The notes beneath the pieces were generated by a model that worked only from the letters and a program-made list of their open reading frames with translations, searched no databases and was not told the DNA's origin. DNA of 63,719 bases, counting the filler, from Sphaeroforma arctica JP610 (taxonomy: Eukaryota), in NCBI RefSeq assembly GCF_001186125.1. It is 5 parts of 2 records of this genome, joined end to end, with 100 filler letters (N's around TTAATTAATTAA, not from the genome) between each part and the next. Parts side by side here need not be neighbours in the genome. Positions count along the whole stretch, not along the records: positions 9,897 to 34,560 come from NW_014040535.1; 4 more parts are not named here. One strand, given 5' to 3'. The position numbers and the translations under genes are program-made. Below, piece by piece: positions 31,500-34,277 of the stretch; the first letter of the stretch is position 1, and every line of letters starts with the position of its first letter.

Positions 31500-34277
31500 A
31501 TGAGTTTCTCGGCAATATCATACACCCTTGCGAGCATGCTGCTGGTCAGCATGTCCAGCAACATGGTTGCGGGACATGTTTACATGTCTGATCCAGAAGC
31601 CCGGAATGTTCATGGTAATCCCGACAGACAATCACTGGCCGCCGGAGGCCCTAGTACAGTTCTGCAGGATGGTCAGTACCGACACGGTTTGTGTGGAAAC
31701 AAACACACTGACGCACTACAGAATTGGAATGAGCCTATGGGAATCAAGCGAACCTATACTGAAGGACAGGAGATAGACATCTCAGTAGTGGTAACTGCGC
31801 ACCACATTGGCTACTTTGACTTCCAACTCTGCGATACAACGGATATCTCCGAGGAGTGCTTTGCCCAACACCAATTAACACGTACTGGCTGCGAGGGTAG
31901 TGGAAGTGTTGACGACCCAAACTGTGAGCGCTGGTGGAAGCCTCTAGCACTGCATGAGACTATGGCCTGGGTGGTGACTGCCAATGGTGGATACCAGTAC
32001 CACACACTGGATAGTGGTACTGTGATGGTGAGGACCAAATTTGTCTTGCCGCAAGGTGTGACATGCACAAACTGTGTTTTGCGCTTCCATTACTATTCTA
32101 CGAACTCTTGCCGTCCCGAAAATCAGAATGACGATTCGAACATGGTGTCAGAAGAATTCTGGAATTGCGCCGATATACAGATAACAGGAGCACAAGGCAC
32201 AAGAAACACGGACGCGACACCTGCGCTCGTTGCAGACCTGAAAACCCGTGTACCTCAAAATCTGAAGGGCACCGGCATGGATAATTTCTGTCCCCGACAT
32301 GGTTTAGGAGAAATTCAAGAATATGCCAACGTAGCTCAGTGTGTCTCTTACGACATGAAAACACTACAGTGCGACTATCCAGGCAACAGCGACGGCAATG
32401 GTAACGCTGACAAATGCGCGAATATTGCCTGTGGAGCTCATGGTATCTGTGAATCTGGTAATTGCGAATGTATCGATGGTTACACCGGGGCTTCATGTGA
32501 CACGCCACCCTTAGATGGCTGCGCGACAGTTGATTGTGGTTCACATGGAAGTTGCAGTGGAGGTGTATGCACGTGTACAGACGGATACTCAGGTAAACTC
32601 TGCACCGATGCAGGTAGTGGTGGTGATGGTGACGGTGTTGGTGGTGATCTTGTACAGAAATGTAAGGAATGTCGGGGCTGTTTGTGGGATGCACCGGGCG
32701 CATGTTACCATGATTGGGACAAGGCCACGTGCGACCGATACGCTGGATACACTTATTGCGGCAATGTCGGTAGTGATCTCTGCCAGAATACCAAGTGTGG
32801 TGTCCACAGTTCCGCATGTAATGCGGGACAATGCACATGCACAGATGGATATACTGGGCCACTGTGTGATGTAGCCCAGAATGTATGTGCCACAGTTGAT
32901 TGCGGTTCAAATGGTATTTGTGAACTCGGTGTTTGTAAATGCACAAACGGCTTCAGTGGTGATTTATGCCAGAATTCTTCTGACGCCTGCTACAGCTTGA
33001 ACTGTGGACTACATGGCTATTGCGAATCTGGAGTCTGCACCTGTGAAAACGGATACACTGGCTCTCTCTGTACTATACCTCCTGCCAGTCCGTGTGACAA
33101 CATCAATTGTGGTCAGTATGGTAGCTGTACTGACGGTATGTGCGTATGTTTGGATGGATATACGGGCACTCTATGTGACACCCCCGCCAGTGGAACCGGC
33201 GACAGGGATCCACAATGCGGGACATGTGGAGGCTGCTTGTGGAAGGCCCCCAATGCGTGCTACGCTACGTGGGACAGAGCCACCTGTGAGAGATACACAC
33301 AGGGTGGTTACACATTCTGCGGCACCACAGGTGGCGATGGAAACAAGAGTGGCAACGATGGTGAGGGCGGTGATAGTGGTAGTAGTGCCTGTGACACCGT
33401 CGATTGCGGAGCTCATGGGTCGTGTGATGCTGGCATGTGTAACTGTGACGCCGGATACACAGGGCTGTACTGTGATGTGATTCAAAGCCGTAATATACCA
33501 ACCGGATCCATTCGCAACTTGTTGTCCAGTGCACAGTTTGATGTGATGTTCAATCTGAGACAAAACTCCCCCAACTGCAACGAAGGAATTTCAAAGTTGA
33601 CGTATGAGAACTTTGTGACAGCGGTGGATACGTACTATCCTGCATTCGCTAATGAAGGCAGCGACCAAACACGATTAAGAGAGATTGCTGCGTTTCTGGG
33701 TCAAATCTCGCAAGAAACCACAGGCTGGTGGCCGGGACAGGAGTACGGGTGGGGTCTGTGCTTCATCGAGGAAGTGGCGTGTCGAGAAAACGGGTGCCCA
33801 CAATACTCACAGCCTGGGAATGCGCAGTATCCGGCGGTAGAGGGCAAGTCATACCACGGTCGAGGTGCTATCCAGATCACATGGAACTACAACTACGGAA
33901 GTCTGAGTGAAGAGCTTTTCAATGGTGACAAGAATGTGCTGCTGCAAAATCCCGACCTGCTGACGGAGGATGGTGTGGTTGCTTTCCGAGCTTCCCTATG
34001 GTTCTGGATGACTGCTCAAGATTCCAAACCTTCCTCACACGATGTTATGATTGATGTTGCACCAGAGTGTCCGAGCGCGCGTAGATACAACGGATACGGC
34101 CGTACAACGAACATCATCAACGGCGGTCTGGAGTGTCAAATACCCACACCCGCGAAGGTGCAGAATAGAGTGAACTACTACGAGCGGTACTGCAGTATAC
34201 TCGGAGTAGACCCCGGTCAGAATCTATACTGCGATCAGATGTTAAACTACCTATCCGGAGTACAGTGTCGGAGCTAG
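31500..34277 (+). CDS. Secreted multidomain chitinolytic enzyme: signal peptide, AA15-like lytic polysaccharide monooxygenase, EGF-like repeats with two 6-Cys modules, GH19 chitinase (925 aa, single exon)
   Basis: A hydrophobic leader ending VAG places His at mature position 1 (HVYMSDPEARN, 31575). LPMO motifs: RHGLCG, YTEGQEIDISVVVTAHHIGYFDFQLC, LPQGVTCTNCVLRFHY, EEFWNCADI. Seven C-x4-CG-x-HG-x-C-x2-G-x-C-x-C-x-(D/N)GYTG-x2-C-type repeats. GH19 motifs: REIAAFLGQISQETTG, WGLCFIEE, YHGRGAIQITWNYNYG, LWFWM, KPSSHDV, TNIINGGLEC, LGVDPGQNLYC. ATG 31500 is preferred over the GTG at 31485 given in the ORF track. Confidence 0.95.
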   Translation: MSFSAISYTLASMLLVSMSSNMVAGHVYMSDPEARNVHGNPDRQSLAAGGPSTVLQDGQYRHGLCGNKHTDALQNWNEPMGIKRTYTEGQEIDISVVVTAHHIGYFDFQLCDTTDISEECFAQHQLTRTGCEGSGSVDDPNCERWWKPLALHETMAWVVTANGGYQYHTLDSGTVMVRTKFVLPQGVTCTNCVLRFHYYSTNSCRPENQNDDSNMVSEEFWNCADIQITGAQGTRNTDATPALVADLKTRVPQNLKGTGMDNFCPRHGLGEIQEYANVAQCVSYDMKTLQCDYPGNSDGNGNADKCANIACGAHGICESGNCECIDGYTGASCDTPPLDGCATVDCGSHGSCSGGVCTCTDGYSGKLCTDAGSGGDGDGVGGDLVQKCKECRGCLWDAPGACYHDWDKATCDRYAGYTYCGNVGSDLCQNTKCGVHSSACNAGQCTCTDGYTGPLCDVAQNVCATVDCGSNGICELGVCKCTNGFSGDLCQNSSDACYSLNCGLHGYCESGVCTCENGYTGSLCTIPPASPCDNINCGQYGSCTDGMCVCLDGYTGTLCDTPASGTGDRDPQCGTCGGCLWKAPNACYATWDRATCERYTQGGYTFCGTTGGDGNKSGNDGEGGDSGSSACDTVDCGAHGSCDAGMCNCDAGYTGLYCDVIQSRNIPTGSIRNLLSSAQFDVMFNLRQNSPNCNEGISKLTYENFVTAVDTYYPAFANEGSDQTRLREIAAFLGQISQETTGWWPGQEYGWGLCFIEEVACRENGCPQYSQPGNAQYPAVEGKSYHGRGAIQITWNYNYGSLSEELFNGDKNVLLQNPDLLTEDGVVAFRASLWFWMTAQDSKPSSHDVMIDVAPECPSARRYNGYGRTTNIINGGLECQIPTPAKVQNRVNYYERYCSILGVDPGQNLYCDQMLNYLSGVQCRS
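31575..32183 (+). other. LPMO catalytic domain (AA15/AA10-type histidine brace)
   Basis: His1, second His in TAHHIGYF, axial aromatic residue in EEFWNCAD. The Cys pattern (FQLC..EEC..TCTNC..NSC..NCAD) is typical of eukaryotic AA15. Confidence 0.85.
33510..34274 (+). other. Glycoside hydrolase family 19 chitinase domain
   Basis: Both catalytic glutamate motifs are present (SQETTG, Glu codon 33714; CFIEE ~33770), plus GRGAIQITWNYNY and IINGGLEC. Confidence 0.93.

What the first reader, a model, noticed from the sequence alone, without database searches (positions are those of the whole stretch)
31500..34277. Single-chain oxidative plus hydrolytic chitin-attack enzyme: AA15-like LPMO, EGF stalk, GH19 chitinase
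Seen: one uninterrupted 925-aa ORF with a signal peptide that would expose His1, an intact histidine-brace LPMO, seven EGF-like repeats interrupted by two 6-Cys modules, and a GH19 domain with both catalytic Glu motifs. Known: LPMOs oxidatively nick crystalline chitin and act synergistically with chitinases. GH19 is mainly plant, bacterial and phage, whereas opisthokont chitinases are normally GH18. AA15-chitinase fusions have been noted in some algae, so the pairing itself is not unprecedented. I do not know of one joined by a tenascin/teneurin-type EGF rod. Inference: a tethered two-catalyst enzyme held apart by a rigid disulfide spacer, for penetrating host cuticle, fungal walls, or remodelling its own wall.
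Basis: partly seen in the sequence, partly recalled or inferred. Interest (0 to 1): 0.92.

Follow-up and report, generated by a model that had tools for sequence, protein, structure and literature searches.

The report
Protist two-headed chitin enzyme, EGF tether
A single gene, likely from an ichthyosporean (a single-celled relative of animals), joins a copper enzyme predicted to nick chitin to a chitinase through a chain of EGF repeats and likely chitin-binding modules; the enzyme pairing is already reported in other protists, and the EGF tether is the part that looks new.

Summary
One single-exon 925-aa ORF carries a likely signal peptide, an AA15-type LPMO (His26, His102, axial Phe220), seven EGF repeats, two 6-Cys modules and a GH19 with all catalytic residues. 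Three sequencing runs each span it in one contig with no differences. The nearest named relatives are Sphaeroforma and Creolimax proteins, so the host is likely an ichthyosporean.

The interpretation needs trimming. AA15-GH19 fusions are in print for oomycetes and haptophytes; 12 of 137 proteins held here have both domains, and only this one has EGF. GH19 is common in ichthyosporeans. The stalk is jointed, not rigid: five polar linkers of 12-23 aa, four of them Gly-rich. The 6-Cys modules match a module on Aphanomyces AA15s that fits X473, a putative chitin-binding module reported only from Saprolegniales; here it also appears in ichthyosporeans and a red alga. Trees indicate the fusion arose independently, plausibly from clustered AA15 and GH19 genes like those in S. 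arctica.

Most likely it is a secreted oxidative-plus-hydrolytic chitinase for outside chitin; a role on its own wall at cell release remains open. New variant of a known kind.

The parts
31500..31574 (+). Likely signal peptide (aa 1-25), ending Val-Ala-Gly before His26
   Evidence: Most hydrophobic stretch of the protein; no later 19-residue window among the 8 highest; small residues at -3/-1; His preceded by Ala/Gly in 31 of 32 relatives listed. Cleavage inferred, SignalP not available.
31575..32186 (+). AA15-type LPMO core (aa 26-229): His26/His102 brace, Ala100, Glu218, axial Phe220; Val at mature position 2
   Evidence: Pfam LPMO_10 E 1.3e-11; only significant PDB sequence hit TdAA15A 5msz E 3.8e-12; fold hit 5msz Z 12.7, rmsd 3.7, 163 aligned, next Z 8.6 (model pLDDT 57)
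32187..32378 (+). 64-aa extension with 3 Cys (aa 230-293), shared with ichthyosporean AA15s; likely disulfide-tied to the core (core has 9 Cys, extension 3)
   Evidence: Found in 6 of 137 held proteins, all window/Sphaeroforma/Creolimax; aligned also in P0065, P0071, P0072; no usable Atlas match. Disulfide tie is inference from Cys counts.
32415..32603 (+). EGF repeats 1-2 (aa 306-333, 341-368)
32661..32759 (+). 6-Cys module 1 (aa 388-420), X473-like putative chitin-binding module
   Evidence: 59% identical to module 2; profile score 53.6 bits
32781..33176 (+). EGF repeats 3-6 (aa 428-559), the only closely linked run (6-7 aa joints)
   Evidence: teneurin-3 is the best PDB hit for this part, E 2.3e-14
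33216..33320 (+). 6-Cys module 2 (aa 573-607), X473-like; Trp591 and Tyr604 conserved
   Evidence: AF2 model pLDDT 92; 42% identical to the module on A. astaci AA15 H257_14650; Atlas structure hits are oomycete trypsin, LPMO and GH18 clusters
33390..33473 (+). EGF repeat 7 (aa 631-658), after a 23-aa Gly/Asp/Ser linker
33510..34277 (+). GH19 chitinase domain of the long, loop-bearing plant class I/II type (aa 671-925): Glu739, Glu758, Thr794, Glu878, Arg890; no membrane anchor
   Evidence: Pfam E 4.7e-64 over profile 2-232/232; best PDB hits are full-length plant chitinases at E about 1e-58; residues; hydropathy

Best explanation
The gene encodes one chain with an AA15-type LPMO, two 6-Cys modules, seven EGF repeats and a GH19 domain, which is likely secreted and likely degrades solid chitin from outside the cell (invertebrate gut lining, cuticle, detritus). 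Shown: domain order and catalytic residues. Inferred steps: (1) signal cleavage leaves His26 as the N-terminus and copper binds His26/His102; (2) the X473-like modules hold the chain on chitin; (3) the Phe-axial LPMO makes C1-oxidative nicks in crystalline chitin; (4) the tethered GH19 cuts the loosened chains to soluble oligomers; (5) the EGF segments act as a protease-resistant, jointed tether that lets both heads work around the anchored modules, not as a fixed ruler. The fusion likely arose within Ichthyosporea by joining an AA15 of the SARC_10287 type to an EGF-GH19 of the SARC_10289 type.
For: Catalytic residues intact in both heads. Axial Phe is associated with chitin-active AA15s (PMC5823890 passages; PMC8393829 section). 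The 6-Cys module profile hit 51 proteins; of 46 scanned, 19 had a Pfam hit and 12 of those 19 carry LPMO, GH18, GH19 or GH46. Precedent for intramolecular synergy: Jd1381 AA10-CBM5-GH18 (PMC10154629 passages). Polar linkers and whole-protein Atlas pTM 0.36 fit a jointed chain. Independent origin: GH19 groups with P0002-P0005, P0007, P0049 (100/98), but the LPMO groups with standalone ichthyosporean AA15s (100/99) and an AU test rejects grouping it with the LPMOs of P0003/P0004/P0005 (p 3.5e-70). In S. arctica 8 AA15-orthogroup and 2 GH19-orthogroup genes lie within gene numbers g12968-g12981. In S. arctica culture time courses 11 of 13 AA15-orthogroup genes stay at about 2 tpm or less, and none of 4 GH19 genes seen (of 5) surges at cell release, which fits genes waiting for an outside substrate. 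Ichthyosporeans are osmotrophs with adapted secretomes (PMC4739763 passages). 13 of 24 listed differences in the relative X20 are synonymous vs 29% expected, p 0.009.
Against: No activity, expression or binding data for this protein. One S. arctica AA15-orthogroup gene (g11145) rises from 2-7 tpm to 288 and 134 tpm at cell release, and g33925 rises about threefold; the window gene could not be mapped to these genes and may be of that class. Val at mature position 2 is unique among 32 relatives (28 Gly, 3 Ala). The LPMO model is weak in the N-terminal region (pLDDT under 50 for aa 1-31 of the mature domain), so brace geometry is untested. The 6-Cys module also sits on non-chitin enzymes (tyrosinase, papain-type protease, CBM1 proteins; 7 of 19 Pfam-bearing hits), and binding of X473 to chitin is only proposed in print. 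The synonymous-change test used only the 24 rows inside the ORF that displayed (24 further rows not shown, selected by support), nearly all in the stalk.
Confidence: 0.55

Rival explanations
1. Same two-step chemistry, but aimed at the organism's own wall: it loosens the mother (coenocyte) wall or separates newborn cells at release.
For: S. arctica AA15-orthogroup gene g11145 climbs to 288/134 tpm at 66/72 h, when newborn cells are released (about 60 h, PMC6855841 passages). Walls stain with calcofluor. Some ichthyosporeans have chitin synthase genes (PMC11286789 passage).
Against: None of the 4 S. arctica GH19-orthogroup genes with data shows that surge (g12972, g12975, g24787 at 1.5 tpm or less; g18722 flat at 3-9). 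Calcofluor does not prove chitin (own knowledge), and the two wall papers searched do not mention chitin. A fusion gene could sit in either orthogroup, so the mapping is open.
Confidence: 0.25
2. The LPMO head is weakened or non-catalytic and serves as a binding domain; the protein works as a GH19 chitinase or antifungal/lysozyme-like defence enzyme with extra binding modules.
For: Val after His1, seen in 1 of 32 relatives; close GH19 relatives in marine metatranscriptomes lack an LPMO and carry other Cys-rich modules (L001, L002, 67-68% identical).
Against: All brace and second-sphere residues are kept; other LPMO families tolerate non-Gly residues at position 2 (own knowledge); the LPMO branch is short (0.31).
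Confidence: 0.12
3. One reading: the EGF stalk is a rigid rod that fixes the distance between the two active sites.
For: EGF3-6 are joined by only 6-7 residues and resemble teneurin EGF arrays.
Against: Five polar linkers of 12-23 aa interrupt the stalk; EGF number and module placement differ in SARC_10289; 11 other LPMO-GH19 fusions have no EGF and use Pro/Ser/Thr linkers where read.
Confidence: 0.08

Closest known systems
AA15-GH19 fusions of Oomycota and Haptophyta (Sabbadin et al. 2018, PMC5823890), e.g. A. astaci DYB30_007236 (P0116), Aphanomyces cochlioides P0030
   Same: N-terminal AA15, 6-Cys module(s), GH19 in one chain
   Different: EGF stalk instead of Pro/Ser/Thr linkers; long loop-bearing GH19 instead of the shorter oomycete type; LPMO and GH19 in separate clades from the oomycete ones; LPMO C-terminal extension; likely ichthyosporean host
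Jonesia denitrificans Jd1381 (AA10-CBM5-GH18)
   Same: Bicatalytic LPMO plus chitinase with an internal binding module; the only characterised LPMO-hydrolase fusion named in the 2023 review, with intramolecular synergy (PMC10154629 passages)
   Different: Bacterial, AA10 and GH18, CBM5, no EGF
TdAA15A/TdAA15B and AaAA15A (AA15 LPMOs)
   Same: Fold, brace, Ala and Glu second sphere; axial Phe as in TdAA15B and AaAA15A
   Different: About 27% identity; Val at position 2; 64-aa extension; fused to GH19
X473 module (Sabbadin et al. 2021, PMC8393829)
   Same: Under 40 aa, six conserved Cys, on A. astaci AA15s and on GH18/GH19 enzymes
   Different: Reported only from Saprolegniales; here internal, between EGFs, and also in Sphaeroforma, Abeoforma and Porphyridium. 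The paper's alignment figure was not visible.
S. arctica SARC_10289 (P0002) and SARC_10287 (P0137)
   Same: P0002: EGF-module-EGF-GH19, 54% over 652 columns. P0137: AA15 plus extension, 54% over 293 columns
   Different: Annotated as separate genes on one 19.9-kb contig; P0137 ends in its own modules; P0002 starts mid-EGF, so its true N-terminus is unknown

Membership tests
AA15 LPMO | His1 after a cleaved signal peptide | tested here: inconclusive
   His26 follows a hydrophobic leader ending Val-Ala-Gly and aligns with His1 of relatives; no SignalP or N-terminal data
AA15 LPMO | Second brace His with preceding Ala, second-sphere Glu and axial Tyr/Phe | tested here: met
   Ala100, His102, Glu218, Phe220 align with TdAA15A and are conserved in the alignment
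AA15 LPMO | Sequence and fold closer to AA15 than to AA10 or other LPMOs | tested here: met
   Only significant PDB sequence hit is 5msz; Foldseek E 4.1e-8 vs 3.2e-4 next; Z 12.7 (rmsd 3.7, 163 aligned) vs 8.6 AA13 and 7.6 AA10; low-confidence model
AA15 LPMO | CAZy/dbCAN AA15 HMM match | not testable with these tools
   No dbCAN library; Pfam LPMO_10 covers AA10 and AA15 alike
AA15 LPMO | Copper-dependent oxidative cleavage | not testable with these tools
   Needs enzyme assay
GH19 chitinase | Full-length PF00182 match | tested here: met
   E 4.7e-64, profile 2-232/232
GH19 chitinase | Catalytic acid and base Glu, water-holding Ser/Thr, supporting Glu and Arg (roles recalled) | tested here: met
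   Glu739, Glu758, Thr794, Glu878, Arg890; Gln replaces the His before the acid Glu in this clade
GH19 chitinase | Endochitinase activity | not testable with these tools
   Needs assay
X473 module | Under 40 aa with six conserved Cys | tested here: met
   33 and 35 aa from first to last Cys; five Cys invariant and one at 90% or more in 30 sequences
X473 module | Homologous to the 6-Cys extension of A. astaci AA15s | tested here: met
   Profile hits A. astaci AA15 H257_14650 at E 8.4e-13 (the profile held two Aphanomyces seeds); direct pairwise 42% over 36 aa; independent Atlas structure hit to an oomycete LPMO cluster, TM 0.74
X473 module | Match to the authors' X473 alignment or HMM | not testable with these tools
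   Figure 3 not held; supplement search found nothing
Known CBM folds (hevein/CBM18, CBM14, CBM1) | Fold match of the 6-Cys module to a solved CBM | tested here: inconclusive
   Confident model; searches list no CBM, which does not exclude one
Teneurin/tenascin-type EGF repeat | Six-Cys EGF pattern matching PF23106/PF07974 | tested here: met
   7 stretches; pattern in 7 repeats. The label is generic: EGF-rich proteins of Naegleria and unnamed sources also match

The most novel reading that the evidence does not exclude
Ichthyosporeans independently built a single-chain oxidative-plus-hydrolytic chitinase by fusing clustered AA15 and GH19 genes through an EGF tether carrying a pan-protist chitin-binding module of unsolved fold, and use it to open their own wall at cell release, which would be the first enzyme assigned to coenocyte hatching in the closest walled relatives of animals.
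Probability: 0.2. Interest if true: 0.7.

Novelty: new variant of a known kind. Interest (0 to 1): 0.42.

Why it matters
No characterised AA15-GH19 enzyme turned up in the searches run; the 2023 review names only Jd1381 as a characterised LPMO-hydrolase fusion. This gene is a clean single-exon test case for intramolecular synergy with a GH19. It extends the X473-like module beyond Saprolegniales and gives a confidently modelled 35-aa candidate for a new chitin-binding family. It adds to evidence that LPMO-chitinase fusion has arisen repeatedly. It also opens a testable question in ichthyosporean biology: whether their AA15 and GH19 genes serve feeding on invertebrate chitin or release from their own wall.

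Tried and rejected
No whole genome is held, so paralogues and synteny could not be examined. No RNA holder listed among 24 runs; X1, X5 and X7 cover the flanks like DNA; X20 (guessed RNA, a relative about 97% alike) has pieces over 31523-34286 with no joint listed inside the ORF, which may reflect conservation rather than transcription, so it is not counted as expression. My first reading that SARC_10288 plus SARC_10289 is a split copy of the same fusion was rejected: SARC_10288 is a truncated duplicate of the complete SARC_10287. No chitin gene cluster in the window: 139 of 173 listed frames plus 9 other ORFs scanned gave Pus10, Myb, NAGLU and a reverse transcriptase. The 6-Cys module has no Pfam family, no PDB sequence hit under E 0.3, no Foldseek hit under E 4 and best Z 2.5; this shows neither a new fold nor its absence. 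The LPMO extension gave no usable Atlas match. Proteins longer than 1619 aa were not searched. Supplement searches for GH19/EGF/X473 terms found nothing in PMC5823890, PMC8393829, PMC4739763; their figures (Supplementary Fig. 4 of PMC5823890, Fig. 3 of PMC8393829) were not visible and may already show related architectures. Earlier scan findings: nothing. PMC5294986 passages were irrelevant. A fuller list of differences in relatives' runs was not obtained, so dN/dS per domain stays open.
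Full report
OBSERVATION. The ORF at 31500-34277 (+) reads 925 aa without a stop; an in-frame stop lies 15 codons upstream. Pfam gives LPMO_10 at aa 26-226 (E 1.3e-11), seven teneurin-like EGF stretches and GH19 at aa 675-911 (E 4.7e-64). Two six-Cys modules sit at aa 388-420 and 573-607. 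Three of four runs laid (X1, X5, X7) each hold one contig across 31134-34500 with no other letters and no gaps, so the junctions are real DNA. The surroundings are an intron-rich, microsatellite-rich eukaryotic genome (Pus10 in four pieces, Myb, NAGLU, a reverse transcriptase) with no other chitin gene among 139 of 173 frames scanned plus 9 other ORFs. The gene itself is single-exon.

HOST. The best named relatives are S. arctica SARC_10289 (54% over 652 columns), S. arctica SARC_10287 (54% over 293), Creolimax CFRG6518 (54%) and SARC_06001 (51%). The host is therefore likely an ichthyosporean (inference).

LPMO HEAD. The only significant PDB sequence hit is TdAA15A. A low-confidence model (pLDDT 57) matches TdAA15A at Z 12.7 (rmsd 3.7, 163 aligned), ahead of AA13 (8.6) and AA10 (7.6). 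His26, Ala100, His102, Glu218 and Phe220 match the AA15 active site. An axial Phe goes with chitin-active members (PMC5823890 passages; PMC8393829 part 2 of 5). Against: the residue after His1 is Val, where 28 relatives have Gly and 3 Ala; the model is poor at the N-terminus; signal cleavage rests on hydropathy and the -3/-1 pattern only. A 64-aa extension with three Cys follows the core, found in 6 of 137 held proteins, all window, Sphaeroforma or Creolimax; nine core Cys plus three suggests a disulfide tie (inference).

GH19 HEAD. It is the long, loop-bearing type closest to plant class I/II structures, with Glu739, Glu758, Thr794, Glu878 and Arg890 (residue roles recalled). In a 48-row tree it groups with SARC_10289 and unnamed P0003, P0004, P0005, P0007, P0049 (100/98), apart from land plants and oomycetes. 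Metagenome relatives at 67-68% carry other Cys-rich modules and no LPMO (L001, L002). GH19 is not exceptional in this lineage: the orthogroup holding Arabidopsis AT3G12500 (recalled as a basic chitinase) lists 5 S. arctica, 8 Abeoforma, 5 Pirum, 2 Ichthyophonus and 1 Creolimax entries (PMC6855841 supplement 7); GH19 is also described from aphelids and other opisthokonts (PMC6299283 passages).

THE 6-CYS MODULES. A profile of 13 modules found 51 proteins among 1.84 billion representatives. Of the 46 new ones, 27 had no Pfam hit; 12 of the other 19 carry LPMO, GH18, GH19 or GH46, and 7 carry tyrosinase, papain-type protease, CBM1, cerato-platanin or a sub-threshold tachystatin hit. Of 10 looked up, named carriers are A. 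astaci AA15 H257_14650, other Aphanomyces proteins, Abeoforma and Porphyridium. The Atlas structure search independently ranks oomycete trypsin, LPMO and GH18 clusters first (TM 0.77, 0.74, 0.55). Sabbadin et al. 2021 define X473 as a six-Cys, under-40-residue extension of A. astaci AA15s, typically fused to GH18/GH19, found only in Saprolegniales and putatively chitin-binding. I could not see their alignment, so the identity is likely, not shown. The module folds confidently (pLDDT 92, three short strands and a helix) with Trp591 and Tyr604 conserved.

THE STALK. Joints are 12, 7, 19, 7, 6, 6, 7, 13, 23 and 12 residues; the long ones are polar and, except the last, Gly-rich. Only EGF3-6 could form a stiff segment. 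The rigid-rod idea is therefore weakly supported; a jointed, disulfide-protected tether fits better (inference; whole-protein Atlas pTM 0.36 is consistent but weak).

HOW COMMON. Twelve of 137 proteins held have both LPMO and GH19; only the window protein has EGF, and only it and SARC_10289 have EGF plus GH19. Homologue searches covered 30-1619 aa for the LPMO part and 508-1619 aa for the whole. AA15-GH19 fusion is in print for Oomycota and Haptophyta, and AA15 for Ichthyosporea. Searches of the open library for AA15+GH19+LPMO, X473+chitin, ichthyospore+GH19, ichthyospore+chitin+LPMO, Sphaeroforma+chitinase+cell wall, AA15/GH19/fused/chitinase/EGF-like and LPMO/chitinase/bicatalytic/synergy showed no report of the EGF-linked form or of an ichthyosporean fusion; subscription journals and figures are not covered.

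ORIGIN. The LPMO groups with standalone ichthyosporean-type AA15s (100/99 in a 27-row tree), and forcing it with the LPMOs of its GH19 clade-mates P0003, P0004 and P0005 is rejected (p-AU 3.5e-70) (an earlier 22-row tree agrees). The two heads thus have different histories: an independent fusion or an LPMO swap. In S. arctica, SARC_10287, 10288 and 10289 share a 19.9-kb contig, and gene numbers g12968-g12981 include 8 AA15-orthogroup and 2 GH19-orthogroup genes. Fusion of such clustered neighbours is the simplest route (inference). SARC_10289 begins mid-EGF and may itself be a truncated fusion.

ROLE. In the published S. arctica culture time course (PMC6855841 supplement 2; passages), the AA15 orthogroup (identified through Creolimax 6518 = P0063) has 13 genes: g11145 rises from 2-7 tpm to 288 and 134 tpm at 66 and 72 h, g33925 from 3 to 11, and 11 stay at about 2 tpm or less (12 full rows and one partial). 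Of 5 GH19 genes, 4 rows were held: three at 1.5 tpm or less and one flat at 3-9. So one AA15 tracks cell release while the clustered and GH19 genes are quiet in culture. The window gene was not mapped to these genes, so this weighs only modestly towards an inducible enzyme for outside chitin. Osmotrophy (PMC4739763 passages) and animal-associated life styles (PMC11286789 passages) fit that. Calcofluor-stained walls (PMC8963540 and PMC6855841 passages) keep the own-wall reading alive. Thirteen of 24 displayed differences in relative X20 are synonymous against 29% expected (p 0.009), a partial and selected sample.

VERDICT. Real, intact and well supported as an AA15-GH19 bicatalytic chitinase that would work like Jd1381 (PMC10154629 passages). 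The pairing is known; the EGF tether, the independent ichthyosporean origin and the wider range of the X473-like module are the new points. New variant of a known kind, interest 0.42.

Noticed in passing
window 30595-31161: MITE-like element with 49-nt terminal inverted repeats (98% complementary), contig depth about 45-100 times the single-copy level, ending 339 nt upstream of the ATG. Target-site duplication not checked.
   Followed up: partly
window 31414-31423: TATA-like sequence about 80 nt upstream of the ATG, and an A-rich context before the start codon.
   Followed up: no
window 50657-51886 (+): Reverse transcriptase plus RNase H ORF of an LTR retrotransposon type.
   Followed up: no
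window 1673-4074 (+), 23394-23939 (+), 60388-63544 (-): Exons of Pus10, a Myb-domain gene and an alpha-N-acetylglucosaminidase (NAGLU) gene.
   Followed up: no
window 8648-9757 (+) and 14692-16305 (+): ORFs of 369 and 537 aa with no Pfam match above cut-off.
   Followed up: no
proteins P0075 (Porphyridium purpureum, 918 aa) and P0072 (Logan, 966 aa): LPMO plus 6-Cys modules plus a shared C-terminal domain of about 380 aa with no Pfam hit but a GRG..Q..G..N.G motif like GH19: possibly another LPMO-chitinase fusion with an unannotated GH19-like family.
   Followed up: no
L001 2-1303, L002 3-1271: Secreted GH19s 67-68% identical to the window's domain, carrying two other Cys-rich modules (ShK-like by eye, recalled) instead of EGF.
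   Followed up: partly
S. arctica Sarc4_g11145 (PMC6855841 supplement 2): AA15-orthogroup gene induced from 2-7 tpm to 134-288 tpm at cell release in culture: a candidate wall-opening LPMO in its own right.
   Followed up: partly
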